A stretch of DNA of 64,000 nt from Candidatus Eiseniibacteriota bacterium. GTDB taxonomy: Bacteria > Eisenbacteria > RBG-16-71-46 > JABDJR01. The DNA lies in the NCBI GenBank assembly GCA_963768615.1, contig CAVYIE010000005.1, positions 343,821-407,820 of the forward strand, in the 5' to 3' direction. Shown piece by piece: positions 1,702-59,750 of the stretch. A program made the position numbers and the translations under genes. The stretch's first letter is position 1. Each line of letters begins with the position of its first letter. The notes beneath the pieces were generated by a model that ran no database searches, was not told where the DNA came from, and saw only the letters and a program-made list of their open reading frames with translations.

Positions 1702-2440
1702 GAGGGTCTCCTTCAGTCGAGTGGGTGGGGGAGAACGGTCGTCCGTCCACCCGCAATGCGGGAAATCCGGGGGGGATGCGCAGTCCCGGGACCGAGGTTC
1801 GTCCGAGGGCGGCCCTGGGGCAGGTTCCCCGCATCCTGGCTGAAATCCACCACGATGGCAACCCGTTGTGCGGTGGGTGCTTGTGGCGACAGACACCCCG
1901 GGGTGGGGTTCCTTCCCCGGGGACCTGCGGTGCTTTCCCCCGGGAGGGCCGCCGTGCGGGCCGAAGCGGCACCACGCCCCCTGGAATCGCAACCCATTGT
2001 GGGGAGATGATTTGCCCCCCGGGCTCGCCCGTCCGCCCCCGAATGGCACGCCTCCTGCTCTCTCTGATGAGCGTACGCCCTCGCAAGGGGATGCGCCGAG
2101 ACCCGGCGCAGCGGAATCGCCCGCCGGAGTGAGACGTGGAGCCGGCCCTCTCCAGTCCCCCTCCTCCTCCTCGCAAGGTTTCGCGTTTCGCGACGGCGGG
2201 CGGTCCCTTCCCCGCGAGCGGCGACCCGGCTTGGCGGCCGGAAACTGAGACTCCGTGTTCCCCTGACAGCGCCCCTAGGTCCCTTTTTCGGCCGCCAGTT
2301 CTTCGAGAGAGCCCGTCCGTTGCAGCGCGGGGTCCGAACCGGGCCCGGGTGGTCCTCCTCCCCACCCGGGCCCTCTCCTTGCCCCCGGCACGCCCTCCCG
2401 CTCTTGGCCATCCGCCCCGGGGCCTTCCCGGTGTTGTACC

Positions 2441-2545
2441 CGGGTGCGCATTCTTCTTGGTCCACGGCCTTGGATTTCTCTGGATCGGCGGGCGTTCCCC
2501 GTGGAACAACCCTGTGTTCGACTTGGCGCCCGATACGGCCGGTGT
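2441..2545. repeat. Copy 1 of a ~105-bp element containing a GTACCCGGGTGCGC palindromic core and TTGGATTTCTCTGGATCGGCGGGCGTTCC
   Basis: Near-identical second copy at 2786..2890 (about 85% identity by eye). It shares its CCCGGG-centred palindrome with the repeats at 52.3-52.6 kb and a site at 19911. Confidence 0.6.
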
Positions 2546-2585
2546 TTTCGTGCGGTCGCAGCCCTCCCCGCGAACGACGAGGCAA

Positions 2586-2700
2586 TCTGGCCGGCGGCGG
2601 GCCGAAGCGCCGAAGGCGCGAGGGGGCCCCGCGCCGGCCAGAGCGAGCCGGTAGAACGATCCGGCGGATCGTTCCGGCGAGCGCTGCCGAGGAATCGCGG
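2586..2700. repeat. Single reverse-complement copy of the 97-bp tandem-repeat unit found at 51765..52185, including the unit's 3' junction sequence
   Basis: cgcgagggggccccgcgccggccagagcgagccggtagaacgatccggcggatcgttccggcgagcgctgccgaggaatcgcggggcgg is the reverse complement of ccgccccgcgattcctcggcagcgctcgccggaacgatcccccggatcgttctaccggctcgctctggccggcgcgggtccccctcgcg with 2-3 mismatches. Upstream, ggcgggccgaagcgccgaaggcgcg is the reverse complement of the array terminus cgcgccttcggcgcttcggcccgcc. Confidence 0.7.
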
Positions 2701-2785
2701 GGCGGAACGGCCCCGCGAGCGGATCGCGGGCCCGCGATACACAGTGCGAGCGAAGCCCGCGGAGCGGGCCGCGACGGTGCACCGG

Positions 2786-2890
2786 GTTACCCGGGTGCGC
2801 GTTTTTCTTGGCCCCTGACCTTGGATTTCTTTGGATCGGCGGGCGTTCCCTGGGGAGCAGCCCTGAGTTCGAGATGGCGCCCGGCGCCCA
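2786..2890. repeat. Copy 2 of the ~105-bp GTTACCCGGGTGCGC element
   Basis: See 2441..2545. The two copies flank the inverted 97-bp unit. Confidence 0.6.
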
Positions 2891-2913
2891 TCGGCAAGGC
2901 CGCAGCCGCCCCG

Positions 2914-3552
2914 TCAGTCGTCCTCGTCCTCGCCCCGCACCGCTTCCACCCCCTCCCGGACGATGAGCGGCAGCATGACCAGGGCCGCGGCCGGGTCCGC
3001 CCACCACCACCCCCTCCAGGCGTTGAGGGCGAGGCCGGCCAGCAGCGTCCAGGAGAGCCAGCTGCAGACCAGGGTCTCGGTCCCGTCGGCGTAGAGGGAG
3101 CGGCTCCCGAGGCGCCGCGCGGTGCGGCGCTTGGCCAGGCCCAGGACCGGCATCAGCACCGCCGAGAGCGCAGCCACCACGAGCCCCACCACGCTCTCCG
3201 CCGGGGCCTCGTGGACGGCGAGCTTTCGCACCCCCTCGTAGAGCACGTACGCGCTCAGGGCGAGAAGGGTCACCCCCACGATCCACTCCGCCCGGCGCTC
3301 GCTCATGAAGTGGGCGTCGGCGTCGTGCCCCCGGTACTCCTCGTAGAGGCGGAGGAACACCACCACCGAGGCCAGGGTCTCGATCCCGCTGTCCAGACCG
3401 AACCCCACCAGGGCCACGCTGCCGGCGTGGATCCCCGCCACCACCGAGATCACGCCTTCCAGCACGTTGTAGACCGCGGTGGATCCGACCAGGGCGAGCC
3501 CCAGGCGCAGGAGATGACGGCGTCGGGGCTGTCCGGGAGCCTCTGGGGCCAT
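2914..3552 (-). CDS. Cation diffusion facilitator (CDF)-like membrane protein, transmembrane domain only (no C-terminal cytoplasmic domain)
   Basis: 212 aa; six predicted TM segments. Motifs align to the CDF TMD (ALVGFGLDSGIE ~ ALVDSLVDIGAS; HFMSERRAEW ~ HSFGHGKAES; YADGTETL ~ HYQSDVMM), recalled from E. coli FieF. Confidence 0.55.
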   Translation of the reverse strand: MAPEAPGQPRRRHLLRLGLALVGSTAVYNVLEGVISVVAGIHAGSVALVGFGLDSGIETLASVVVFLRLYEEYRGHDADAHFMSERRAEWIVGVTLLALSAYVLYEGVRKLAVHEAPAESVVGLVVAALSAVLMPVLGLAKRRTARRLGSRSLYADGTETLVCSWLSWTLLAGLALNAWRGWWWADPAAALVMLPLIVREGVEAVRGEDEDD

Positions 3553-15589: not shown

Positions 15590-16726
15590 ATGAGAGCCAT
15601 GTCGAATCCCCTGCCTCGCCTCCGGCGTCCGGCGCGCGCCGTCCGGCTCCCGGTCCTGGCCGGCGCGCTCCTCGCCCTCGCCGGCTGCGGCGGCGGGGAC
15701 GCCTCGCCGGAAGCCGCCGCCGACACCACCGCCGCCGTCGTGGTCCCGGTGGCCGTCCACGTCCTGGCCGCCGGTCCGGCCACGGCCTCGATCCGGGCCT
15801 GGGGCACGGTGGAGCCGGTCCGCCAGGCCCGCATCCTCTCCGAGGTCTCGGGCCGGGTGGCCTCCACCGGAGCCGGGCTGGGGGACCGGGTGGAGGCGGG
15901 CCGGGTGCTGCTCGAAATCGACCCCGGTCTCCACGATGCCCGGGTCCGTGAATCCGAGGCCTCGACGCGCAGCGCGGCCCTCGCCCTGGAGAAGGCGGAG
16001 CGGGACCTCGACCGCGCCCAGGCCCTCTACGACGAGGGCTCCATTTCCGACAGCGAGCTGGAGGCGGCCCGGACCGCCGGGGCCCAGGCCGAAGCGTCCG
16101 CCGCGTCGGCCGAGGCCTCCCTGGCCCAGGCCCGCAAGAACCTGGCCGCGGCCCGGCTGCGCGCCCCCTTCGCCGGCGAACTGGCCTCGCGGCTCCCCGA
16201 CCCCGGCACCAGCGTGAGCCTCGGCTCGCCCCTGGCCATCCTGGTGGACATCGACCGGGTGCGGGTGGAGGCGGCGGTCTCGGAGGAGGACCTGGCCCAC
16301 GTGGCCCGGGGCGGCGCCGCCACCCTCACCGCCGGCGGGGTGCCGGGCTCTCCCGTCTCCGGCGTCGTGACCGCGGTCGGCCCCCAGGCCGACCCCGAGA
16401 GCGGGCAGTTCCCGGTGGTGATCGAGGCCGAGAACCCGGCCGGCCATCCCCTCCGGGGGGGGATGGTGGTCCGGTGCGAGATCGTCTACGCCAGCTACGA
16501 CTCGATCCCCCTCCTGCCGGTGGACGCCCTCATCGACGCCGAGGGTGAGGACGCCTTCTACGTGGTCCGGAACGGCCGGGCGGAGCGGCGGACGGCCAGT
16601 CTCGGCCCCCGCCGGGACCAGATGGCGGCGGTCCTGGCCGGGGCGGCGGTGGGGGACTCGGTGGTGGTCCTGGGCCAGGTGCGGCTGGCCGACGGGGCGC
16701 CGGTGCGGGTGGAAGAGGTGCGGTGA
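15590..16726 (+). CDS. RND efflux membrane fusion protein (lipoprotein, HlyD family)
   Basis: Signal peptide with lipobox-like LALAGCGG; coiled-coil hairpin and beta-barrel regions; 4-nt overlap with the downstream RND pump. Confidence 0.85.
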   Translation: MRAMSNPLPRLRRPARAVRLPVLAGALLALAGCGGGDASPEAAADTTAAVVVPVAVHVLAAGPATASIRAWGTVEPVRQARILSEVSGRVASTGAGLGDRVEAGRVLLEIDPGLHDARVRESEASTRSAALALEKAERDLDRAQALYDEGSISDSELEAARTAGAQAEASAASAEASLAQARKNLAAARLRAPFAGELASRLPDPGTSVSLGSPLAILVDIDRVRVEAAVSEEDLAHVARGGAATLTAGGVPGSPVSGVVTAVGPQADPESGQFPVVIEAENPAGHPLRGGMVVRCEIVYASYDSIPLLPVDALIDAEGEDAFYVVRNGRAERRTASLGPRRDQMAAVLAGAAVGDSVVVLGQVRLADGAPVRVEEVR

Positions 16727-19700
16727 TGTCGCCCCCCCGCCTCTCCGTCTCCAATCCGGTTCTGGTCAACCTGGTCATGGTGGCCATCGTGGGCTTCGGC
16801 CTCTTCTCCCTGGCCACCCTCCCCCAGGAGCAGATCCCCAACGTCTCCTTCCCCTGGGCCTTCGTGGTGGTGATCGACAACGGGGTGTCCCCCGAGGAGA
16901 TCGAGAAGACCATCACCGTCCCCATGGAGGACGAGCTCCAGAACGTGGACGACCTGAACGCCATGACCTCCATCTCCCGGGAGGGGGGCGCCTTCGTCTG
17001 GCTCAAGTTCGAGACCATGCCCGAGGACGATTTCCAGCTCCGGCTCCAGGACGTGCGGGCGGCGGTCAACAAGGTGAGGCTGCCGGAGAGCGCCGAGGAA
17101 CCCGACGTCTCCCAGTTCAAGACCCAGGATTTCGCCCCCCTGGTCGGCGTGGTCATCACCGGCGACCTTCCCGAGCACCGCATGAAGGAGATCGCCGAGG
17201 ACCTCCGCGACGACATCCTGGACATCCCCAAGGTGTCCCAGGTCCAGATCTCCGGGGTCCGGGAGCGCGAGGTGTGGGTGGAGGCCGATCCCGCCCGGCT
17301 GGAGCGCTTCGGGCTGAGCCTGGAGCAGGTGGCCCTGGCCATCCGGAACAAGCATCTGAACCGGACCGCGGGGGACCTCCGCACCGGCCGCATGGACTAC
17401 CGGGTGCGGACGGTGGGCGAGGCGGAGCAGGTGGCGGAGCTGCGGAACGTGATCGTCCACGCTTCGTCCGGGGGTGCCCTGGTCCGGGTGGGCGACGTGG
17501 CCCGGGTCTCGGACACCTTCCACGAGGAAGAGACCCGCTCCCGCTTCAACGGCAGCCCCTCGGTCACCCTCACCGTGTCCAAGAAGCAGGACGGCCATTC
17601 CATCGGCATCGTGAAGGAGATCAAGGCGCTGGCCGGCACCTACCGGGACACCCGCCTCCCCCCGGGCGCCGGGATCACCTTCACCAACGACTCCTCGGAC
17701 TTCATCCGCGAGATCCTGAGCACCCTCAAGACCAACGCCTGGATGGGCATGCTCCTGGTGGCGGTCTCGCTCTTCCTGTTCCTGGGCTGGCGCCAGGCCG
17801 TGTTCGCGGTGGTGGGGATCCCGGTGGCCCTGGCCCTCACCTTCACCTTCCTGCGTTTCACCGGCAACACCATCAACGGCAGCTCCCTCTTCGGACTGGT
17901 GCTGGTGCTGGGCATGCTCGTCGACGACGCCATCGTGGTCATCGAGAACAGCTTCCGCTACATGGAGCTGGGCATGCCCGCCCGCCAGGCCGCGGTGGTG
18001 GGCACCCGCGAGGTCATGCTGCCCGTCCTCACCTCGGCCGGCACCACCATGGCCGCCTTCCTCCCCCTGATGCTGCTGCCGGGGGTGATCGGCGACTTCA
18101 TGCAGATCATCCCCGCCGTGGTCTCCATGGCCCTCCTGGCCTCGCTCTTCGAGTCCTTCTTCATCCTGCCCTCCCACATCGCGGAATGGAGCGGGCGGCG
18201 GCGGCGGAGCGAACGCCCCCCGGTCGACTTCTCCGGGGTGCGCCATCTCTACCGCCGGCTCCTGGCCCGGGCCATCCGCCGCCGCTACTGGGTGCTGGGG
18301 GCGACCACCCTGCTGCTCCTGGCCACCCTGCCCCTGGCCTTCGCGGTGGGGGTGGACATGTTCGCGGACGAGGAGGTTCCGTTCTTCTTCGTCTACGTGA
18401 CCATGCCCGAGGGCACCCGGCTGGACGCCACCGACGCCGTGCTCACCCGGGTGGAGGCCATCGCCCGGGAGAGCATCCCGGCCGGGGACCTCAAGCACGT
18501 GCGCACCGTGGCCGGCCTCCAGGAGACCGAGGGGGAGTGGATCGTCAAACCCTCGGTGGGCCAGGTGGTGGTGGAGCTCCGGGACAAGGACGAGCGCAGC
18601 TCCGAGGTCGAGGACCTCATGAACCGGATGCGGGACGAGGCGCGGTGGGTGCCGGGGATCGAGTCCCTGGAGTTCCACCGGGTCAGCTCCGGCCCGCCCA
18701 CCGGAGCCCCGGTGGAGGTCAAGGTCCGCGGCGACCACCTGGACGAGCTGAGCGCGACCGCCGAGGAGGTGAAGGCCGCCCTGGCCGGCATCGAGGGGGT
18801 GAAGGACATCCGCGACGACTTTCTCGCCGCCACCCCGGAACTCCGGGTCAAGGTGGACGAGGAGAAGGCGGCCATGTACGGGCTGGACGTGGCCGGGGTG
18901 GCCGCCACCGTCCACGCCGCCTTCCAGGGCCGGGTGGCCACCCAGTTCCTGGAGGGGGACGACGACATCGACGTGCTGGTGCGGCTGGACGAGGCCTCGC
19001 GATCCGAGCGCCGGGACCTGGCCGACCTCACCGTGGTCACCCCCACCGGACGGCGGCTGTACCTGAAGGACGTGGCCGCGATCCGCGAGGAGGCGGGCTA
19101 CGCCACCATCAAGCACGACGAGAAGCGGCGCGCCATCACCGTCACCGCCAACGTGGACAAGGCGGTGGTGACCGGGGTGGAGGCCAACAACCGGCTCATG
19201 GACGCCTGGCCGGCCATCTCGCTCCGCCATCCCGGATACGACCTCCGGTTCGGGGGCGAATTCGAGGAGTTCAAGGAGGCCTTCACCAACCTGGGGCTGC
19301 TGTTCCTGATGGGGGTGGCCATCATGCTGGTGATCATGGCCGCCCAGTTCAACTCCATCACCCAGCCGCTCATCATCTTCATGGCCGTGGTGTTCGCGTT
19401 CTGGGGCGCGGTGCTGGGCCTGTTCCTCATCCGCTCCCCGTTCTCGGTCAACAACCTGTTCGGCCTGGTGGCCCTGGCCGGGGTGGCGGTGAACAACTCC
19501 ATCGTCCTCATCTCCTTCGTGAACACCCTGCGGGAACGGGGCGCGTCGCGACTCCGGGCGGTGCTCCGGGCCGGGAACCTCCGGGTGCGTCCGATCCTGC
19601 TCACCAGCGTGACCACCATCCTGGGCCTGTTGCCCATGGCCCTGGGCCTGGGCGGCTACTCGGAGGTGTGGGGCCCCCTGGCGGTGGTGATGGTGTTCGG

Positions 19701-19872
19701 CCTCACCGCCAGCTCGATTCTGTCGCTGTTCCTGATTCCCTGCCTGTACCTGGGACTGGGGGACCTGAAGCGGGCGACCCTCCGCCGCAGCCTGGCCGAG
19801 GAGCGCCAGCGCTGGCGGGCGCGCACCGCCCGCCGCGCCGAGGTCGCCTCGGTGGACCGGGGGCGGGAGTAG
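16723..19872 (+). CDS. RND efflux transporter permease (AcrB/AcrD/AcrF-like)
   Basis: 1049 aa, RND topology with two large periplasmic loops. No cognate OMF gene is adjacent. Confidence 0.9.
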   Translation: MMSPPRLSVSNPVLVNLVMVAIVGFGLFSLATLPQEQIPNVSFPWAFVVVIDNGVSPEEIEKTITVPMEDELQNVDDLNAMTSISREGGAFVWLKFETMPEDDFQLRLQDVRAAVNKVRLPESAEEPDVSQFKTQDFAPLVGVVITGDLPEHRMKEIAEDLRDDILDIPKVSQVQISGVREREVWVEADPARLERFGLSLEQVALAIRNKHLNRTAGDLRTGRMDYRVRTVGEAEQVAELRNVIVHASSGGALVRVGDVARVSDTFHEEETRSRFNGSPSVTLTVSKKQDGHSIGIVKEIKALAGTYRDTRLPPGAGITFTNDSSDFIREILSTLKTNAWMGMLLVAVSLFLFLGWRQAVFAVVGIPVALALTFTFLRFTGNTINGSSLFGLVLVLGMLVDDAIVVIENSFRYMELGMPARQAAVVGTREVMLPVLTSAGTTMAAFLPLMLLPGVIGDFMQIIPAVVSMALLASLFESFFILPSHIAEWSGRRRRSERPPVDFSGVRHLYRRLLARAIRRRYWVLGATTLLLLATLPLAFAVGVDMFADEEVPFFFVYVTMPEGTRLDATDAVLTRVEAIARESIPAGDLKHVRTVAGLQETEGEWIVKPSVGQVVVELRDKDERSSEVEDLMNRMRDEARWVPGIESLEFHRVSSGPPTGAPVEVKVRGDHLDELSATAEEVKAALAGIEGVKDIRDDFLAATPELRVKVDEEKAAMYGLDVAGVAATVHAAFQGRVATQFLEGDDDIDVLVRLDEASRSERRDLADLTVVTPTGRRLYLKDVAAIREEAGYATIKHDEKRRAITVTANVDKAVVTGVEANNRLMDAWPAISLRHPGYDLRFGGEFEEFKEAFTNLGLLFLMGVAIMLVIMAAQFNSITQPLIIFMAVVFAFWGAVLGLFLIRSPFSVNNLFGLVALAGVAVNNSIVLISFVNTLRERGASRLRAVLRAGNLRVRPILLTSVTTILGLLPMALGLGGYSEVWGPLAVVMVFGLTASSILSLFLIPCLYLGLGDLKRATLRRSLAEERQRWRARTARRAEVASVDRGRE

Positions 19873-20035
19873 CGGGCACGGGTCCGATTCAAGGAAGTCC
19901 GGGGTGGGTGACCAGGAAGAGTGTGCACCCGGGTGCAATTCCGCGGCCGTCACGCGCCGTCCCGCCAGCCCAAAGGCGCCGGCCCCACAAAGGTTACATA
20001 ATCGAGTGCGCCGGCTGGGTTACAATTCCGGAGCC

Positions 20036-20671
20036 ATGAAAGTCACCGAGATCTTCCATTCCATCCAGGGCGAGTCCACCCACGCCGGGCGGCCCTGCAC
20101 CTTCGTGCGGTTGACCGCCTGCGACCTGCGCTGCCGCTGGTGCGACACCGAGTACGCCTTCGGCGAGGGGCACCCCATGGAGCCGGAGGCGATCCTGGCC
20201 GAGGTGGCCGCCCACGGCTGCCGGCTGGTGGAGGTCACCGGCGGCGAGCCGCTGCTCCAGCCCGGGACGCCGGATCTCTGCCGGCGGCTCCTGGATGCCG
20301 GCTACGAGGTGCTGGTGGAGACCGGGGGCCATCACGACGCCTCGGTGCTCCCCGAAGGGGTCAAGACCATCCTCGACGTGAAGTGCCCGGGGAGCGGCGA
20401 GTCCGGGAAGGTCCACTGGCCCAACCTGGACCGCCTTCGCCCCGGGGACGAGGTGAAGTTCGTGATCGCCGACCGGGCCGACTACGTCTGGGCCCGGGGC
20501 GTGGTGCAGGAACGCCGGCTCACCGACCGGGCGCCGGTCCATTTCTCCCCCGTGTTCGGCCGGCTGGATCCCGCCGACCTCGCGGCCTGGATCCTGGAGG
20601 ACGGCCTGGCCGTACGCCTCCAGCTCCAGATCCACAAGCACGTCTGGGAGCCCACCCGCCGGGGGGTGTGA
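20036..20671 (+). CDS. queE: 7-carboxy-7-deazaguanine synthase (radical-SAM QueE)
   Basis: MKVTEIFHSIQGEST...CDLRCRWCDTEY (CxxxCxxC radical-SAM cluster motif in the QueE context). Start is the internal ATG 20036. Confidence 0.9.
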   Translation: MKVTEIFHSIQGESTHAGRPCTFVRLTACDLRCRWCDTEYAFGEGHPMEPEAILAEVAAHGCRLVEVTGGEPLLQPGTPDLCRRLLDAGYEVLVETGGHHDASVLPEGVKTILDVKCPGSGESGKVHWPNLDRLRPGDEVKFVIADRADYVWARGVVQERRLTDRAPVHFSPVFGRLDPADLAAWILEDGLAVRLQLQIHKHVWEPTRRGV

Positions 20672-43566: not shown

Positions 43567-44233
43567 GTGCAGGGCTCCTTCAAGCTGAGTTATCCACAGC
43601 CCGCAGCGCCAGCCGGAGACGCCGCAAGCGGGACCAATTCCGGGATGTTACGGGCAGGGCGGGACTCCGGACGCAAGCCGACCCGGCCCGAGTGGTTTCC
43701 ACAACTGTGGAAATGTCGCTATTCAGCTGTTCTGTATAGACTTAGGACCTTGGCGGGGGCACTTTCCGCACGGGGTTATCCACAGGAGGGTGAAGCACGG
43801 TGGGGAAGGCACGGCTCCTCCGTAAAACCAACTGTGCCAGCAGCTTCGGACGCCGCTAGCCACGGTCAAGGCCCCGGAATCGAGCGTGCGCGCAGAATAG
43901 CACAGCACCCCCCCCGTCACAAGGCGAAAGCGACCCCCTTGCGAAACGGGTTAAGTGCAATCATGACAAGTCGTTCAATCGGTTCACTCAAGTGAAGAAT
44001 AACCCGAAGCCGGGGCTGTGGAAAACCCGGTGGATGAAGGGGATAAATGACAATTGAGATCCAATTTTATCATGGAATTTACCGGCCGCCGGCAGGGGGC
44101 TCCAAAGGCCTTGACGCCCCCCCCTCCGCCTCGTACCCTCTTCCGTCCCGTTCCGTTCCCGGTACTTCGGTGCCGACGGCCGTCCGCCCCCCGGGCGGGC
44201 CGGATCCACACCTCGATCGAAGGGGGTTGTTCG
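43567..44233. other. Chromosomal origin of replication (oriC): DnaA boxes plus AT-rich DNA-unwinding element
   Basis: TTATCCACA at 43590-43598 and 43767-43775. A palindrome of TTTCCACAA and TGTGGAAAT (TTTCCACAACTGTGGAAA) at 43697-43715. TGTGGAAAA at 44008-44016 and GGATCCACA around 44203. A roughly 40-bp AT-rich stretch (gataaatgacaattgagatccaattttatcatggaattt, 44032-44070), which is an outlier in a roughly 70%-GC genome. Sits between dnaA and rpmH. Confidence 0.8.
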
Positions 44234-51623: not shown

Positions 51624-51639
51624 CGTTTCACGTGAAACA
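51624..51639. promoter_or_regulatory. parS centromere site (cGTTTCACGTGAAACa, 15/16 to consensus tGTTTCACGTGAAACa)
   Basis: Palindrome read from the sequence 12 bp after the rsmG stop. Confidence 0.8.
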
Positions 51640-51764
51640 TGGGCGCCGATCAGCCGGAAATCATTGTACAAGCAAATCGACTTGTAACCCCCTAGTTGTT
51701 TGTGACGGCTCGGTTCCCTTCTGCGCTGCCGGTGCCCCAGCGCCGCCGCTGACCCACGTTCTTG

Positions 51765-52185
51765 GGGCCGGGCTGCCCCGCGCGGCCGGTCCGCCCCGCA
51801 ATTCCTCGGCAGCGCTCGCCGGAACGATCCCCCGGATCGTTCTACCGGCTCGCTCTGGCCGGCGCGGGTCCCCCTCGCGGGGCCGGTCCGCCCCGCGATT
51901 CCTCGGCAGCGCTCGCCGGAACGATCCCCCGGATCGTTCTACCGGCTCGCTCTGGCCGGCGCGGGTCCCCCTCGCGGGGCCGGTCCGCCCCGCGGTTCCT
52001 CGGCAGCGCTCGCCGGAACGATCCCCCGGATCGTTCTTTCGGCTCGCTCTGGCCGGCGCGGGTCCCCCTCGCGGGGCCGGTCCGCCCCGCGGTTCCTCGG
52101 CAGCGCTCGCCGGAACGATCCCCCGGATCGTTCTTTCGGCTCGCTCTGGCCGGCGCGGGTCCCCCTCGCGCCTTCGGCGCTTCGG
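51765..52185. repeat. Tandem direct repeat array 1: about 4.3 copies of a 97-bp unit (GGGGCCGGTCCGCCCCGCGRTTCCTCGGCAGCGCTCGCCGGAACGATCCCCCGGATCGTTCTWYCGGCTCGCTCTGGCCGGCGCGGGTCCCCCTCGC) with an internal palindrome GAACGATCCcccGGATCGTTC; non-coding
   Basis: Copies of TTCCTCGG... begin at 51801, 51898, 51995 and 52092 (period 97), with only 2-3 variable positions between copies. There are no unique spacers, so this is not CRISPR. Confidence 0.85.
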
Positions 52186-52296
52186 CCCGCCGCCGTCCAG
52201 GTTGCCTCGTCATTCGCGGGGCGGCTGCGGCCTTGCAAGAGAACGCCCTAAGGCGATGCCCGCGTGCACCCTGCATTGTTTGGGCCTCGTTCATCG

Positions 52297-52590
52297 CGGG
52301 GTGGCTGGGGACGGCGGAGGTGTACCCGGGTAAACAAGACGTTCGCAGGACGGCCGGGGCCGGCTGAGGGGTACCCGGGTAAACTCGGCATCGCGGGGCG
52401 GCTGGGGACGGCGGGGGTGTACCCGGGTAAACAAGACGTTCGCAGGACGGCCGGGGCCGGCTGAGGGGTACCCGGGTAAATTCGGCATCGTGGGGCGGCT
52501 GGGGCCAGCGGGGGTGTACCCGGGTAAACCCGGCGTTCGCAGGACGGCCGGGGCCGGCGGGGGTGCACCCGGGTAAACCCGGGGTTGTCG
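52297..52590. repeat. Tandem direct repeat array 2: about 3 copies of a different 97-bp unit, each made of two roughly 48-bp half-units carrying a G(T)GTACCCGGGTAAAC palindromic core
   Basis: TGTACCCGGGTAAACAAGACG at 52321 and 52418 (period 97). The third copy is diverged (...GGGTGCACCCGGGTAAACC). Confidence 0.8.
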
Positions 52591-52886
52591 AGCTTGCGAC
52601 CCGGGGAAGACCGGGGCCGGGGAAGAAGACAGAGCGGTGGGAGGCACAAGCGGAATTGCTTGTATCCTCCTGGGCGCCGGGGGCAGGCGACTGCCGGCAG
52701 CGCCTGGCCTTCGTCATGGCCTCGTACGGGGACCGACCCCTTCCCCCCGAGGGTGGAGACCGGAGCCCATCGCAGTCTGCCAGGACCACCGCCGCACCAT
52801 CTCGCCTCGGTGCCCGGGCCATGGGCCCGGCGAACCCTGCCTCCGTGCCTTCGCTGAACTGCGAGAAGAACCGGTGTGCGCCCCCC

Positions 52887-52902
52887 TGTTTCACGTGAAA
52901 CC
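52887..52902. promoter_or_regulatory. parS centromere site (tGTTTCACGTGAAACc, 15/16)
   Basis: Palindrome read from the sequence, 320 bp upstream of parA. Confidence 0.8.
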
Positions 52903-53225
52903 TCTGGGCGTATCGCTCGGTACTGCGAAAGGCAAGCAAGTAGCCGATGTGGCTCCGGGTAGAAGGCTTTTCGTTGACATGGGCCCCCCCAAGGGAGCAC
53001 CATGAACCAAGTTCGGCGCCCCGATCGCGTGGTGTGCCGGACAGGTCTTGTCAAGACAAGCGCTTATGGAGGGCGACCTTGTTCTTGGCCGTGGCGCCGA
53101 ACTGGACGGCGCTCCCGCCATGCCCGCCCCTCCCTCGCTTGAATTCCCCGGTCCATTCTCACGCCGGAACTGTCTTGTGCCCGCCCGTCCCCCGGCGGAT
53201 CGCCGGCGTGGAGGAATCGGAACGC

Positions 53226-54047
53226 ATGACCCCGCCGGAAAGGAAGCAGACCGTGAGTCGCATGATCGCCATCGCCAACCAGAAGGGGGGCGTGGGGAAG
53301 ACCACCACGACGGTAAACCTGGCCGCGTCCCTGGCCGACCTCGGCCGGAAGGTCCTGGTCCTGGACATGGACCCTCAAGGGAATGCGGGCAGTGGGTTTG
53401 GAATCAACGGAAACGACACCGCCAGAGGCGCTTATGAGGTCTTGACCGGGGAGTGCTCCGTGGCCGAGGCGATCGTCCCCACCGGGGTGAGCGGGGTGGA
53501 TCTGCTGCCCTCGGGGCAGCGGTTGATCGGCGCCGAGGTGGAGCTGGTGGGCGAATCGGAGCGTGAGCTGATCCTGCGCCGAGCGCTGGCCGAACGGCGC
53601 GAGGCCTACGATTACCTCCTCGCCGATTGCCCCCCCTCCCTGGGCCTCCTGACCGTCAACACCCTGACTGCCGCCGACGCGGTCCTTATCCCGATCCAGA
53701 CGGAGTACTACGCGCTCGAGGGGTTGACCCAGCTCCTGAACGCCATCCGGCTGATCCAGCAGTCCTTGAATCCCCCGCTGGAGATCGAGGGGATTCTCCT
53801 CACCATGTACGATTCGCGGCTCAACCTCTCCCAGGAAGTCGCGGCGGAGGCCCGAAAGTACTTCGCGGGACGGGTCTACGAGAGCGTGATCCCGCGCAAC
53901 GTCCGGCTCAGTGAGGCGCCATCCTACGGCATGCCCGTGCTCCAGTACGACAAGGCCTGCGTCGGGTCGCAGAGTTATGTCGGCTTGGCACAAGAGCTTA
54001 TAGCACACGAATCCAACCCGGAAGAGGAGGTGGTGTCTCATGAATAG
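53226..54047 (+). CDS. parA: Chromosome partitioning ATPase ParA (Soj)
   Basis: Deviant Walker A IAIANQKGGVGKTTTTVNLAASLA, then DMDPQGN. Alternative start ATG 53262. 8-nt overlap with parB. Confidence 0.9.
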   Translation: MTPPERKQTVSRMIAIANQKGGVGKTTTTVNLAASLADLGRKVLVLDMDPQGNAGSGFGINGNDTARGAYEVLTGECSVAEAIVPTGVSGVDLLPSGQRLIGAEVELVGESERELILRRALAERREAYDYLLADCPPSLGLLTVNTLTAADAVLIPIQTEYYALEGLTQLLNAIRLIQQSLNPPLEIEGILLTMYDSRLNLSQEVAAEARKYFAGRVYESVIPRNVRLSEAPSYGMPVLQYDKACVGSQSYVGLAQELIAHESNPEEEVVSHE

Positions 54048-54942
54048 AAAGGCCCTGGGCCGAGGACTGGAGGCCCTGATCCCCAGTGCGCCGGAACGCC
54101 GATCGGAGCCGCCGGCCGCCAAGGAGCAGGCTGCCGAGGCGGGCCATGATTCGCCCGGACCCCGCACCGTGTCCTTGGACCGGATTCGCCCCAATCCCTA
54201 TCAGCCCCGGACCCACTTCGACCCGGAAGCGATCGAAGAACTGGCCGAGTCCATCCGCGTCAATGGGCTCATCCAGCCGCTCGTGGTTCGGGATGCCGGA
54301 GAGGGTCGCTTCGAGCTCATCGCCGGGGAGCGGCGCTTCATGGCCTGCCGCCAAGCCGGGCTGACCGACGTGCCGGTGGTGATCCGGTCCGCGAGCCGCA
54401 AGGAGATGCTGGAAGTGGCGCTGGTCGAGAACCTCCAGCGCGAAGACCTGAGTCCGATCGAGGAGGCGGAAGCATTTCAGCGCCTGGCCACGGAATTCGG
54501 CCTCACCCAGGAAGAGGTGGCCGGGCGGGTCGGCCGCAGCCGCACCGCGGTCACCAATTCCCTGCGACTCCTCGGTCTTGAGGAAGAGCTCAAGGAATTG
54601 GTTTCACGTGGAACACTCTCCGCAGGCCATGCACGTGCTCTCCTCGCACTGCCCGAGGGAACTCCCCGTCGCAAGCTCGCGCGCGAGATCGTCCAGAAGG
54701 GCCTTTCCGTGCGGCAGGCCGAACTCAAGGTGCAGGGCGAGAAGCCTCGGGCCAACCGGCCGGCGGCGCGCAAGCGTTCTCATCCTGCCCTGGATGCCTG
54801 GGAAGACCGGCTGCGCACGCGCTTCGGCACGCAGGTCCGCATCGTCGGTGGCACGGGACGGGGGAAACTCGAGATCCACTACTTCAGTGAAGAGGATCTG
54901 GAACGGATCCTCGAGCTGACCGGCGTGAACAGCTATCTCTGA
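54040..54942 (+). CDS. parB: Chromosome partitioning protein ParB (Spo0J)
   Basis: ParB box GERRFMACRQAGL, HTH (EEVAGRVGRSRTAVTNSLRLL), N-terminal MNRKALGRGLEALI. Confidence 0.95.
   Translation: MNRKALGRGLEALIPSAPERRSEPPAAKEQAAEAGHDSPGPRTVSLDRIRPNPYQPRTHFDPEAIEELAESIRVNGLIQPLVVRDAGEGRFELIAGERRFMACRQAGLTDVPVVIRSASRKEMLEVALVENLQREDLSPIEEAEAFQRLATEFGLTQEEVAGRVGRSRTAVTNSLRLLGLEEELKELVSRGTLSAGHARALLALPEGTPRRKLAREIVQKGLSVRQAELKVQGEKPRANRPAARKRSHPALDAWEDRLRTRFGTQVRIVGGTGRGKLEIHYFSEEDLERILELTGVNSYL
54600..54615. promoter_or_regulatory. Degenerate parS site inside parB (gGTTTCACGTGgAACa, 14/16)
   Basis: Read from the sequence. Confidence 0.55.
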
Positions 54943-56305: not shown

Positions 56306-56334
56306 CTGTGGACAACTGGCCCCGCCTGTGGAAA
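56306..56334 (+). promoter_or_regulatory. Two direct DnaA-box-like 9-mers (TGTGGACAA and TGTGGAAAA, 10-bp spacer) downstream of the bactofilin gene and upstream of a small membrane-protein gene
   Basis: Read from the sequence. Same TGTGGAAA motif as in oriC. Confidence 0.4.
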
Positions 56335-56452
56335 ACTCATAAGGCGCTCATCCAGAACGGGTTACAACTGCATGGTAAGCGCCTGAAGAGTGTCTTATTC
56401 ACATGACAGCGTCCGGCATCGGAGCGGGCGGGTCACCGGAGGGAAAGAGACA

Positions 56453-56689: not shown

Positions 56690-56764
56690 AACGGCCCGGC
56701 GACCCGGCCCGGCGACCCGGCCCGGCGCCTCGGCCCGGCCCGCCCCGCCGCGGTCACGCCGGGA

Positions 56765-58102: not shown

Positions 58103-58150
58103 GCCGGGAGCATAGCACCGCGCCCGGTGGCCTCCGGCAGGCGGCCTCCA

Positions 58151-58238
58151 CCCCGCCTCCACCCGGCGCCCGCCCCGCCTGCACCCGGCGCCCACCCCGC
58201 CTCCACCCGGCGCCCGCCCCGCCTGCACCCGGCCGCCC
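58151..58238. repeat. Four tandem 22-bp direct repeats (CCCCGCCTSCACCCGGCGCCCR) in the divergent promoter region between the LarA-like gene and the CDF transporter gene
   Basis: CCCCGCCT begins at 58151, 58173, 58195 and 58217. Confidence 0.7.
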
Positions 58239-58388
58239 CCCTCCGCCGCGCGAACGCCGGCGCCGTCTTCCGCTGACGGCGTCCGCCGCCGATGCTAGGC
58301 TCTGGAGTCGCTTCCCGGACGGTCGGCGCCGGGGACGGGGGGGGGGCCGCCCGCGGGCCGGGGCCGGGGATCGGGCAAGGAGGTCGTT

Positions 58389-59297
58389 TTGTCGCGGAAG
58401 AAGGCGTCGAAGGCGTCGCCCCAGGTCCTGGAGCGCGACCGGCAGGTCGGCCGGGTGCTCTGGATCGTGCTCTTCCTGAACCTCCTGGTGGCGGCCCTCA
58501 AGCTGGTGTTCGGCTTCCTCTCCGGCGCCATCAGCATGATCGCCGACGGCTTCCATTCCACCCTGGACGGCTCCAGCAACATCGTGGGCCTGGTGGGCAT
58601 GAAGGTGGCGGGGAAGGCTCCGGACGAGGAGCATCCCTACGGCCACCGCAAGTTCGAGGCCCTGGCCGCGCTCGGGATCTCGCTCTTCCTCTTCGTCACC
58701 TGCTACGAGATCGTGACCTCGGTCATCGGGCGCCTGCACGAGAGCCATCACGTGGACGCCCGCCCCATCACCTTCGCGGTGATGGTCTTCACCATGGTCG
58801 TCAACTTCTTCGTCACCCGCTACGAGCGGCGGCAAGGGCAAGCGCTCCGCAGCATGATCCTCCTCGCCGATTCCAAGCACACCCAGAGCGACATCTTCGC
58901 CAGCTTCGGGGTGCTGATCTCCCTGGGGGCGGCGGCGCTGAACGTCCAGATCCTGGATCTGGTGGTGGCCCTGGGGATCGCCGGATTCATCGCCTGGTCG
59001 GGTTACACCATCGTGGCCGAGGCCTTCTCCGTGCTCTCCGACGAACAGCGCCTGGACCCGGCGCGGGTGGCGGACATCGCCGCCGGGGTGGAGGGGATCA
59101 GCGAGGCGCACCGGATCCGGAGCCGGGGCCTTCCCGACGACATCCACGTGGATCTCCACGTGCACGTGCCCGCCCAGATGACCATCGGCCAGGCCCATGC
59201 CCTGGGGCACACCGTCTCCAAGCGGATCAAGGAGGACATCGGGGGGGTCACCGACGTGGTGGTCCACGTGGAGCCGGACGAGCCCCACCGGGAGTGA
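58389..59297 (+). CDS. Cation diffusion facilitator family metal efflux transporter (CzcD/FieF-like), full length with C-terminal cytoplasmic domain
   Basis: TTG start with AAGGAGG RBS. TM2 HSTLD and TM5 HTQSD metal-site motifs. C-terminal domain with DIHVDLHVHVPAQMTIGQAHALGHTV. Confidence 0.9.
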   Translation: MSRKKASKASPQVLERDRQVGRVLWIVLFLNLLVAALKLVFGFLSGAISMIADGFHSTLDGSSNIVGLVGMKVAGKAPDEEHPYGHRKFEALAALGISLFLFVTCYEIVTSVIGRLHESHHVDARPITFAVMVFTMVVNFFVTRYERRQGQALRSMILLADSKHTQSDIFASFGVLISLGAAALNVQILDLVVALGIAGFIAWSGYTIVAEAFSVLSDEQRLDPARVADIAAGVEGISEAHRIRSRGLPDDIHVDLHVHVPAQMTIGQAHALGHTVSKRIKEDIGGVTDVVVHVEPDEPHRE

Positions 59298-59692: not shown

Positions 59693-59750
59693 GCGAGAGA
59701 GACACGCGAGAGACACGCGAGAGAGACACGCGAGACCTCCATCGAGACAG
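59693..59750. repeat. Short imperfect microsatellite (GAGAGAGACACGC / GAGAGACACGC, about 3.5 copies)
   Basis: Read from the sequence within a 600-bp non-coding region. Confidence 0.6.

What the first reader, a model, noticed from the sequence alone, without database searches (positions are those of the whole stretch)
2441..2890. Inverted, rearranged copy of the rsmG-parA repeat material 49 kb away
2586-2700 is the reverse complement of one 97-bp unit of array 1 and includes the same array-terminal junction (CGCGCCTTCGGCGCTTCGGCCCGCC...GTCCAGRTTGCCTCGTCRTTCGCGGGG), so this is a copy of the array end rather than an independent motif. It is flanked on both sides by two copies of a roughly 105-bp element (2441-2545, 2786-2890) carrying GT(T)ACCCGGGTGCGC. 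That core is related to the GTACCCGGGTAAAC core of array 2. The two loci are in inverted orientation and bracket the whole dnaA/oriC/efflux segment, which makes them substrates for homologous inversion of the origin-proximal 49 kb. Alternatively they are binding sites of one factor placed on either side of the origin. The surrounding 1.2 kb (1702-2913) has no credible gene.
Basis: seen in the sequence. Interest (0 to 1): 0.5.

Follow-up and report, generated by a model that had tools for sequence, protein, structure and literature searches.

The report
Inverted copy of origin-region repeat DNA
A 1.2-kb gene-free spacer holds a real, inverted, partly re-duplicated copy of the repeat DNA that sits between the rsmG and parA genes 49 kb away, but it looks like ordinary lineage-specific non-coding repeat DNA, not a demonstrated origin-organising device.

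Summary
Window 2541-2754 is the reverse complement of 52038-52247 (about 90% identical). It comprises one full 97-bp unit (U, 3 mismatches to array unit 2), a degenerate partial unit and the array-terminal junction J. It lies between two direct copies of a 96-bp element (A 2437-2532, A' 2788-2883; 85%). A 20-nt J fragment recurs after A', so locus 1 is about 1.36 copies of a 351-bp [A-J-U] unit, cut off at the stop codon of a cation-efflux gene.

The spacer has no coding signal and no Rfam match. U+J is strongly self-complementary on both strands (z about -3.4).

New points:
- A third copy of the A head lies at 19884-19943.
- The palindrome TACCCGGGTR occurs only in A, A' and array 2.
- Both arrays lie between two parS sites.
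- Three Eisenbacteria-type relatives keep the long parS-bearing rsmG-parA spacer but have no arrays.
- U resembles one relative's rsmG 3' end, which suggests the array arose at locus 2 and locus 1 is the ectopic copy.

The pair spans oriC asymmetrically (about 41 kb and 8 kb). Inversion or factor binding remains possible but untested, and genome-wide copy number could not be measured. The most likely reading is a BIME-like mosaic of intergenic repeats. Interest is low to moderate.

The parts
2437..2532 (+). Element A, copy 1. The head (2437-2495) carries the palindrome TACCCGGGTG followed by CGCATTCTTCTTGG. The tail is unique to locus 1.
   Evidence: Direct repeat D4 and D1 (96 nt, 85% to 2788-2883). 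No significant fold (z +1.0 and +1.4).
2541..2620 (-). Copy of the array-terminal junction J. The inner 55 nt are about 95% identical to locus 2 and the outer end is diverged. It contains the GCGCC-TTCG-GCGC hairpin and the 11-bp stem CTGGCCGGCGG/CCGCCGGCCAG formed with the end of U.
   Evidence: 11 differences in 82 columns versus 52167-52247. Inverted repeat I2.
2621..2717 (-). One complete 97-bp unit U of array 1, with the GGAACGATCC-NCC-GGATCGTTC hairpin. It carries the variants of array units 1-2 (TAC, GAT), not those of the J-adjacent units 3-4.
   Evidence: 96.9% to unit 2. (3, 5, 6 and 6 mismatches to units 2, 1, 3 and 4).
2718..2754 (-). Degenerate partial second U unit.
   Evidence: Gapped alignments.
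2788..2883 (+). Element A', the second copy of A, 351 bp downstream of the first.
   Evidence: Confirmed base for base in the independent Logan contig L001.
2894..2913 (-). J' fragment: a 20-nt exact match (GCAAGGCCGCAGCCGCCCCG) to the outer end of J at 52217-52236. The second [A-J-U] unit is cut off here, abutting the cation-efflux stop codon (2914-2916).
   Evidence: 100% over 20 nt. Gene call and Pfam PF01545.
19884..19943 (-). Third, partial copy of the A head (GCACCCGGGTGC palindrome plus ACACTCTTCCTGG...GAATCGG). It lies 12 nt after the stop of an AcrB-type RND gene and about 100 nt upstream of a radical-SAM gene.
   Evidence: (73% over 60 nt, E 1e-6), alignment, pattern count, Pfam.
51779..52166 (+). 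Array 1: four 97-bp U units (1 is close to 2, 3 equals 4). The period is not a multiple of 3.
   Evidence: TRF (4.0 copies, 98% matches). D1..
52167..52247 (+). Junction J at the end of array 1, the source-side counterpart of 2541-2620.
52292..52582 (+). Array 2: three 97-bp units, equal to six 48/49-bp sub-repeats. Each sub-repeat carries G(T/G)GTACCCGGGTAAAC. Each 97-bp unit starts with a J-end-like motif CATCGCGGGGYGGCTGGGG. It is the only G4-prone stretch of the two loci.
   Evidence: (D2).
51624..51639 (.). parS site (CGTTTCACGTGAAACA), left of both arrays.
   Evidence: The parS consensus comes from PMC7383237.
52887..52902 (.). parS site (TGTTTCACGTGAAACC), right of both arrays and about 350 nt upstream of the true parA start (about 53253).
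43567..44046 (.). Probable oriC (dnaA-rpmH spacer with DnaA boxes at 43590, 43776 and 44017). It lies between the two repeat loci, about 41 kb from locus 1 and about 8 kb from locus 2.

Best explanation
Locus 1 (2437-2913) is non-coding repeat DNA. It is an ectopic, inverted copy of the end of a lineage-specific repeat complex whose home is the parS-bearing rsmG-parA spacer.

Shown:
- The complex is a mosaic of modules: a palindrome-bearing head (A head / array-2 sub-repeat, core TACCCGGGTR), a junction J, and a 97-bp hairpin-rich unit U.
- At locus 2 the head and U were each amplified in tandem (6 and 4 copies).
- At locus 1 the whole [A-J-U] block was duplicated about 1.36 times.

Inferred:
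- The tandem copies arose by replication slippage or unequal crossing-over.
- The distant inverted copy arose by ectopic recombination or template switching at these hairpin-prone sequences.
- The modules behave like the REP/BIME class of intergenic mosaic repeats. They sit just after stop codons, are strongly self-complementary as DNA or RNA, and at least the A head is dispersed to a third site.
- The palindrome is the one part likely to be a binding site for a dimeric protein.

As a by-product, the pair forms a 150-210-bp inverted repeat across oriC that could occasionally recombine. Nothing here shows an origin-specific role.
For: Anatomy and homology.

Non-coding:
- Flat GC1/2/3 in all six frames.
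- The 97-bp period is not divisible by 3.
- A six-frame translation of all modules finds no predicted protein among 5.8 billion.

Not a known RNA: no Rfam hit at gathering score, and nothing significant at E up to 5.

Self-complementarity: U+J has z -3.35 and -3.47 on the two strands.

Lineage-specific: relatives L004/L005, L046 and L047 keep mnmG-rsmG-[0.5-1.6 kb spacer with 2-3 parS]-parA-parB-M23-bactofilin. None has a TACCCGGGTA site, and a tandem-repeat scan run on L004 only found no array.

Locus 2 as the source: U aligns to L004's rsmG 3' end plus the downstream sequence. The score is 29, against a maximum of 23 in about 1,700 background windows of the same genomes. This is also the best hit of locus 1 anywhere in the 20-kb L004 locus.

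Dispersal: a third A-head copy lies at 19884-19943, again immediately after a stop codon and in the same orientation relative to the upstream gene as A'.

Palindrome restricted to these modules: 8 hits against about 1 expected.

Not an assembly artefact: the independent contigs L001 and L006 are identical.
Against: - Genome-wide copy number is unknown. Only 64 kb plus about 3 kb could be inspected, so 'dispersed family' rests on three A-head copies and two U/J loci.
- The similarity of U to the rsmG 3' end is seen with one relative only. It is not seen with L046, L047 or the window's own rsmG end, so it may be chance (rough corrected p about 2e-3).
- Classic REPs are shorter, sit in alternating orientation, and come with a RAYT transposase. 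None of this was shown.
- The position of both arrays exactly between two parS sites, and the co-orientation of the two U/J copies with respect to replication forks, could reflect function rather than accident.
Confidence: 0.55

Rival explanations
1. Protein-binding arrays. The TACCCGGGTR palindromes (six at 48/49-bp spacing in array 2, two in A/A', one in the third copy) are operators or centromere-like sites for a dimeric DNA-binding protein. That protein might be a ParB/Noc-type or plasmid-centromere-type protein acting in the ParB nucleation zone and at a few other sites.
For: - The palindrome is confined to the repeat modules and survives in three otherwise unrelated flank contexts.
- Array 2 has the architecture of tandem units that each carry one palindrome, and it lies between two parS sites.
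- The same 10-14-bp palindrome TTTACCCGGGTAAA forms tandem arrays at 21-24-bp spacing in unrelated metagenomic genomes, and it flanks a divergent promoter in a 70% GC genome.
- It resembles the Noc site TATTTCCCGGGAAATA in 10 of 14 central positions (PMC7383237). This is a resemblance only.
Against: - No candidate binding protein was identified. The window encodes one ordinary ParB.
- Relatives with the same par locus lack the palindrome entirely.
- In the marine genome the arrays sit next to unrelated genes and also between convergent genes, which is more like interspersed repeats than a regulon.
- The metagenome hits were selected by the search pattern itself.
Confidence: 0.15
2. Structured RNA. 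U/J, and perhaps A, are transcribed as 3'-UTR stabiliser or terminator elements, or as small RNAs. Both U/J copies lie downstream of a gene in the same sense (rsmG at locus 2, the cation-efflux gene at locus 1).
For: - The same sense relative to the upstream gene at both loci (sequence geometry).
- Strong predicted folding of U+J.
- In the RNAalifold consensus, none of the substitutions between the two copies breaks a pair, and two are U-A to U-G changes.
Against: - That consensus is fitted to the two sequences. With a structure taken from one copy alone, the substitutions are not reliably non-disruptive (P 0.003 to 0.70 depending on reference and strand).
- Both strands fold equally well, as expected for DNA palindromes.
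- There is no Rfam match.
- No promoter-like sites, and no terminator-like sites within the repeats, were found.
- Single units fold no better than shuffles (z about -1).
Confidence: 0.1
3. Positioned chromosome-structure elements. These would be a co-oriented pair of GC-rich, hairpin-forming about 214-bp repeats on the two replichores that perturb fork passage or mark an origin-proximal domain. They would be analogous to the E. coli RRS pair flanking Ter, or they would act as a programmed inversion switch of the 49-kb oriC segment.
For: - The inverted orientation on opposite sides of oriC means the same strand is the lagging-strand template at both loci (geometry).
- The size and GC-rich structured nature are similar to the 222-bp RRS (PMC10592627).
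- Perfect runs of 35, 29 and 23 nt allow recombination.
Against: - The shared U/J segment has no G-quadruplex potential. G4Hunter 1.5 or above occurs only in array 2, which is not shared.
- Distances from oriC are unequal (about 41 versus about 8 kb).
- The elements are absent from all three related genomes, whereas RRS are conserved in sequence and position.
- No recombinase gene was seen among the window ORFs scanned. Not every ORF was scanned.
Confidence: 0.07
4. Assembly artefact. The inverted copy would be a chimeric join or mis-placed repeat in a metagenome-assembled contig.
For: The source is a 414,914-bp contig of an uncultured organism. Repeats are where assemblers fail. Logan contig L001 stops at 2701, just where the sequence becomes shared with array 1.
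Against: - The locus-1 copy has its own substitutions: 3 private differences in U and 11 in J.
- It is embedded in unique sequence on both sides.
- Its right part (A', the A'-to-U step, the J' fragment) is reproduced exactly in an independent assembly.
Confidence: 0.03

Closest known systems
REP / BIME elements (repetitive extragenic palindromes clustered into bacterial interspersed mosaic elements; PMC2817692, PMC3333891)
   Same: They are extragenic and placed directly after stop codons. They are built from a few recurring modules combined in mosaics, with tandem amplification of units. They are strongly hairpin-forming, vary between related genomes, and are not protein-coding.
   Different: The units here are longer (97 bp; A head about 60 bp), whereas REPs are 20-40 bp. 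The repeats are direct rather than alternating in orientation. Only 2-3 loci were seen in 64 kb, and copy number per genome is unknown. No RAYT/Y1 transposase was seen.
E. coli Replication Risk Sequences (RRS; PMC10592627)
   Same: Both are a pair of about 220-bp GC-rich, highly structured near-repeats lying on the two replichores in inverted orientation, so each is co-oriented with its fork.
   Different: [quoted passage not shown] Here the pair flanks oriC asymmetrically, has no G4 in the shared part, and is absent from relatives.
Tandem-repeat centromeres and ParB-family sites (parS TGTTTCACGTGAAACA, Noc site TATTTCCCGGGAAATA, PMC7383237; F-plasmid sopC-type arrays, from my own knowledge)
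   Same: Array 2 is a tandem array in which each sub-unit carries one short palindrome. The palindrome has a CCCGGG centre with T/A-rich arms like the Noc site. It lies within the parS cluster next to parAB.
   Different: The sequence is neither parS nor NBS. No second ParB-family protein is known for this organism. The spacing (48/49 bp) and flanks are unique. Relatives with the same parABS locus lack it.
Segmental inverted duplications that mediate origin-spanning inversions (general bacterial genome rearrangement, from my own knowledge)
   Same: These are inverted homologous segments on opposite sides of oriC. An inversion between them would keep gene orientation relative to replication.
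   Different: The homology is short (about 150-210 bp, 91-96%), no inversion variant was observed, and gene order around locus 2 matches a distant relative.

Membership tests
REP/BIME | Extragenic location, typically just downstream of genes | tested here: met
   The J' fragment abuts the cation-efflux stop codon (2913/2914). The third A head lies 12 nt after the RND gene stop. Arrays begin 167 nt after rsmG. There is no coding signal.
REP/BIME | Short (20-40 bp) imperfect palindromes as the basic unit | tested here: inconclusive
   Palindromes and hairpins are present: a 10-12-bp TACCCGGGTR core and a 9-10-bp stem in U. However, the repeating units are 97 bp or about 60 bp.
REP/BIME | High copy number (more than 100 per genome), dispersed | not testable with these tools
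   The source genome is absent from genome contigs and from JGI metagenomes. Within 64 kb there are 3 A-head copies and 2 U/J loci.
REP/BIME | Regularly spaced REPs in alternating orientation | tested here: not met
   All tandem copies are direct.
REP/BIME | Associated RAYT (Y1 transposase) gene | not tested
   None was seen among the roughly 28 window ORFs scanned with Pfam. The rest of the genome is unavailable.
MITE | Terminal inverted repeats and target-site duplication bounding the element | tested here: not met
   The inverted-repeat list for 1650-2950 has no arms at the element boundaries. The flanking repeats A and A' are direct and 96 nt long.
parS / Noc-binding site (ParB-family sites) | 16-bp palindrome matching TGTTTCACGTGAAACA (parS) or TATTTCCCGGGAAATA (NBS) | tested here: not met
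   True parS sites are at 51624, 52887 and 54600. The repeat palindrome G(T/G)GTACCCGGGTAAAC differs from both consensus sequences.
E. coli RRS-type elements | G-quadruplex-forming strand on the lagging-strand template | tested here: not met
   The G4Hunter maximum is 0.92 in locus 1. Values of 1.5 or above occur only in array 2.
E. coli RRS-type elements | Conserved sequence and symmetric position in related genomes | tested here: not met
   The elements are absent from L004, L046 and L047. Distances to the DnaA boxes are about 41 and about 8 kb.
Known structured RNA (Rfam 15) | Covariance-model match at gathering score | tested here: not met
   There were 0 matches in the window. Relaxed searches of both loci gave only sub-threshold hits outside the repeats.
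CRISPR array | Short direct repeats separated by unique spacers | tested here: not met
   Units are contiguous head-to-tail with no spacers.

The most novel reading that the evidence does not exclude
The palindrome arrays and the fork-co-oriented, hairpin-rich U/J copies could be functional chromosome-organisation elements of this Eisenbacteria-type lineage. One possibility is loading or roadblock sites for an unrecognised ParB/Noc-like or other palindrome-binding protein that shapes the ParB-parS nucleation zone and marks an origin-proximal domain. Another is a recombination switch that flips the 49-kb oriC segment.
Probability: 0.08. Interest if true: 0.7.

Novelty: new member of a known kind. 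Interest (0 to 1): 0.27.

Why it matters
If it is only repeat DNA, it matters mainly in practice:
- It marks a place where assemblies of this uncultured lineage will break or mis-join.
- It gives a potential recombination substrate across oriC.
- It shows how intergenic repeat mosaics are born, here possibly from the 3' end of rsmG.

If the palindromes bind a protein, the site would gain interest. A tandem array wedged between two parS sites, in a phylum with no cultured members, would be a natural experiment on how ParB loading zones tolerate or use neighbouring nucleoprotein arrays.

Tried and rejected
- Genome-wide count. A scan of 185,579 genomes with the U hairpin 24-mer returned one hit, an intergenic hairpin in an Angelakisella MAG. 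I judged it chance identity of a short stem.
- A JGI metagenome scan with a U 23-mer found nothing.
- Three viral-contig scans (U, array-2 pair, A) found nothing.
- Plasmid database blastn of both loci found no match.
- Proxy search. I concatenated six-frame translations of U, J, array 2 and A to catch spurious ORFs called on other copies. None scored among 8,000 candidates.
- Organism names from cluster look-ups: none were given. The lineage was inferred only from an ENA record name (Eisenbacteria_JABDJR01) and one NCBI name.
- Locus-1 context in relatives. The cation-efflux protein has thousands of 50-66% homologues but no close one, so there was no syntenic comparison.
- The cation-efflux gene at 2914-3552 is not the orthologue of the one near parB in L004. 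The true orthologue is 58389-59297. The rearrangement idea based on it was dropped.
- Homology of A with array-2 units, or of U with array 2 or A, beyond the core: not significant.
- Structure-preserving substitutions: inconclusive.
- Gene conversion between loci, inferred from U being more similar than J (Fisher p 0.012). I rejected this as weak, because the J differences cluster at the outer boundary.
- Intrinsic terminator or sigma-70 promoter in the repeats: none.
- Structured RNA in 1702-2436: no window beyond z -2.4, and that one is a simple 12-bp hairpin.
- A literature search for the palindrome found only cloning primers.
- The Logan look-up for MnmG, to check the left edge of array 1, was not on record.

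Full report
**Setting.** The window is 70.7% G+C. It carries a classical origin region:
- dnaN and dnaA on the minus strand (dnaA 42214-43566);
- DnaA boxes at 43590, 43776 and 44017 in the dnaA-rpmH spacer;
- then yidC, mnmE, mnmG, rsmG (to 51612), parA, parB, an M23 peptidase, a bactofilin, larA, a CDF transporter, a hydrolase and NAD synthase.

The closest available RsmG is only 59% identical. One related contig is labelled Eisenbacteria in its ENA record. The organism is therefore an uncultured, poorly sampled lineage, probably of that candidate phylum. The source contig is 414,914 bp.

**The observation.**
- The repeat finder gives inverted arms 2563-2735 and 52052-52224 (173 nt, 91%). 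Gapped alignment extends the homology to 2541-2754 versus 52038-52247.
- The copy holds one complete 97-bp unit (2621-2717) with 3 mismatches to array unit 2 and 6 to units 3 and 4.
- It also holds a degenerate partial unit (2718-2754) and the junction J (2541-2620). J has 11 differences in 82 columns, mostly at its outer end.
- Two direct copies of a 96-nt element flank it: A at 2437-2532 and A' at 2788-2883 (85% identical, 351 bp apart).
- After A' the 20-mer GCAAGGCCGCAGCCGCCCCG (2894-2913) again matches the outer end of J exactly.
- Locus 1 is therefore best described as about 1.36 tandem copies of a 351-bp block [A-J-U]. The second copy stops at the stop codon of the cation-efflux gene 2914-3552.
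- A separate short-read assembly of run ERR11594398 reproduces 2701-3040 and 1680-2174 without a single difference.

**Locus 2.**
- Array 1 is four 97-bp units at 98% (51779-52166). Array 2 is three 97-bp units, equal to six 48/49-bp sub-repeats (52292-52582).
- Each sub-repeat carries G(T/G)GTACCCGGGTAAAC plus a conserved G-rich 5' flank.
- Each 97-bp unit begins with a motif like the outer end of J.
- The two arrays sit between two parS sites (51624 and 52887). A third parS lies inside parB (54600).
- Alignment with a relative shows that parA really starts near 53253, so the rsmG-parA spacer is 1.64 kb.

**Is it coding or a known RNA?**
- In both spacers GC content is flat over the three codon positions in all six frames (0.69-0.74). 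Neighbouring genes show GC3 of 0.85-0.94, with rsmG lower at 0.73.
- A 97-bp period cannot encode a protein repeat.
- A concatenated six-frame translation of all modules matched nothing among 5.8 billion predicted proteins.
- Rfam gave no match at gathering score, and only sub-threshold hits outside the repeats at relaxed settings.
- No promoter-like sites, and no terminator-like sites within the repeats, were found.
- U+J is much more self-complementary than shuffles on both strands (z -3.35 and -3.47). This is what nested DNA palindromes give.
- Single units and the A element are not more self-complementary than shuffles.
- In an RNAalifold consensus, all substitutions between the two U/J copies avoid breaking pairs. 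The consensus is fitted to the data, however. With a structure taken from one copy alone, the result ranges from P = 0.003 to 0.70. I treat RNA-level selection as unproven.

**How the A element relates to array 2.**
- The palindrome TACCCGGGTA with at most 1 mismatch occurs eight times in the window against about one expected, all in array 2 and A/A'.
- It lies on the same side of J in both loci.
- Outside the core plus a few bases, A is not significantly similar to array-2 units.
- A third, partial copy of the A head turned up at 19884-19943 on the minus strand (73% over 60 nt). It lies 12 nt after the stop codon of an AcrB-type gene. Its orientation relative to that gene is the same as that of A' relative to the cation-efflux gene.
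- The head of A is therefore a dispersed module, not something peculiar to two origin-flanking sites.

**Comparison with relatives.** Three related loci were examined: L004/L005 (59% RsmG identity), L046 (53%) and L047 (48%).
- All keep mnmG-rsmG-spacer-parA-parB-M23-bactofilin, with two or three parS sites in the spacer (L004 and L046 also have one in parB).
- None has the TACCCGGGTA palindrome, and a tandem-repeat scan, run on L004 only, found no array.
- Gene order to the right of locus 2 is colinear with L004 to the end of the window. There is thus no fixed inversion at that junction.
- U aligns to the last 54 nt of L004's rsmG plus about 70 nt downstream, at 75% over the first 55 nt. The local score is 29, against a maximum of 23 in about 1,700 background windows of the same GC-rich genomes.
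- That region is also the best hit of the whole of locus 1 in the 20-kb L004 locus.
- The signal is absent for L046, L047 and the window's own rsmG end, so I regard it as suggestive only.
- If real, it means U was born from the rsmG 3' end at locus 2 and that locus 1 is the secondary, ectopic copy.
- The locus-1 unit carries the variants of array units 1-2 rather than those of the J-adjacent units 3-4. The copy therefore predates the last duplication in the array.

**Searches elsewhere.**
- The genome-collection scan with the U hairpin returned only a short identical hairpin in an Angelakisella MAG, which I judged chance.
- Viral contigs, JGI metagenomes (U 23-mer) and plasmids gave nothing.
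- A metagenome scan for two palindromes 40-56 bp apart returned 39 loci.
- Many of these are tandem arrays of TTTACCCGGGTAAA at 21-24-bp spacing in genomes of 32-70% G+C.
- At least nine dispersed arrays belong to one marine genome, next to unrelated genes and also between convergent genes.
- Two sites bracket a divergent promoter region in a 70% G+C genome.
- This shows the palindrome is used repeatedly in nature, either as a protein site or as a repeat core. The hits were selected by the pattern, though, and say nothing direct about this window.
- The palindrome resembles the Noc site TATTTCCCGGGAAATA (PMC7383237) but is neither that nor parS.

**Interpretation.**
- The best-supported reading is a lineage-specific mosaic of intergenic repeat modules. 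It was amplified in tandem at its home in the rsmG-parA spacer and copied once, inverted, to a spacer 49 kb away, where it was again partly duplicated.
- In kind this is closest to REP/BIME-type repeats (PMC2817692, PMC3333891). It fails several of their defining features: unit length, alternating orientation, and any known RAYT. The decisive feature, genome-wide abundance, could not be tested.
- The inverted pair spans oriC asymmetrically (about 41 kb and about 8 kb). It has perfect runs of 35, 29 and 23 nt, so recombination between the copies is possible but unobserved.
- The comparison with the E. coli RRS pair (PMC10592627) holds for size, GC-rich structure and co-orientation with the forks. 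It fails on G-quadruplex content, symmetry and conservation.
- The palindromes are the only part with a hint of sequence-specific function.

**Verdict.** The functional proposals (inversion substrate, origin-flanking factor sites) remain untested and are somewhat weakened by the third copy and by absence from relatives. Novelty: a new member of a known kind (intergenic mosaic repeats or segmental duplication). Interest is about 0.27. The chance that this is a functional origin-domain or ParB-zone element is about 8%.

Noticed in passing
window 19884-19943 (- strand): A third, partial copy of the A-element head (GCACCCGGGTGC palindrome plus ACACTCTTCCTGG...GAATCGG). It lies 12 nt after the stop of the RND transporter gene 16723-19872 and about 100 nt upstream of a radical-SAM gene starting at 20036.
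   Followed up: yes
window 51624-51639, 52887-52902, 54600-54615: Three parS sites. Two bracket the repeat arrays and one lies inside parB. Relatives L004 and L046 show the same pattern of 2-3 parS in the rsmG-parA spacer plus one in parB; L047 has two spacer sites and none detected in parB.
   Followed up: yes
window 51667-51689 and 52647-52668; L004 11021-11044: A palindrome CACAAGC-N6-GCTTGTA lies next to parS and is conserved between the window (two copies, one on each side of the arrays) and a relative with 59% RsmG identity. It may be an operator or other functional site of the par region.
   Followed up: partly
window 52947-53252: The long parA ORF (366 aa) is probably over-extended. 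Alignment with L004 places the real start at about 53253 (GTG) or 53262 (ATG). A block conserved with L004 (...AAGCGCTTATGGAGGGCG, 53018-53075) lies upstream and could be the parA promoter region.
   Followed up: partly
window 56307-56403: Three one-mismatch DnaA-box-like 9-mers lie within 100 bp downstream of the bactofilin gene, away from the main box cluster at 43590-44025.
   Followed up: no
window 58144-58247, 56692-56739, 59693-59735: Further short tandem repeats near larA and the CDF gene: 22 bp x 4.3, 13 bp x 3.7 and 13 bp x 3.5. They are unrelated in sequence to the finding.
   Followed up: no
window 2341-2373: A perfect 12-bp stem hairpin GGGCCCGGGTGG-N9-CCACCCGGGCCC in the gene-free spacer. 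It is the only stretch of 1702-2436 that folds better than shuffles (z -2.4 on the minus strand).
   Followed up: partly
window 1858-1869 and 1989-2000; L004 11271-11282: The 12-mer GCAACCCRTTGT occurs twice in the locus-1 spacer and once in the relative's rsmG-parA spacer. It is not significant on its own (9 of 100 shuffles reach 2 hits).
   Followed up: partly
L007-L045 (metagenome loci), e.g. L037 1477-1551, L027 199-340, L007 5237-5319: Tandem arrays of 3-6 copies of the 14-bp palindrome TTTACCCGGGTAAA at 21-24-bp spacing in unrelated genomes (32-70% G+C). At least 9 dispersed intergenic arrays belong to one marine genome (ENA ORCT01/ORCU01). Their function is unknown.
   Followed up: partly
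L003 3551-3584 (Angelakisella MAG): A perfect intergenic hairpin TTGCCGGAACGATCC-GCC-GGATCGTTCCGGCAA shares 24 nt with the hairpin of unit U. I judged it a chance identity of a short stem.
   Followed up: partly
L006 (Logan contig), end at window about 2174: The independent short-read contig stops at 2174 after CCTCCTCCTCCTCGC, which is not at any repeat found here. The cause could be a coverage gap or population variation in the spacer.
   Followed up: no
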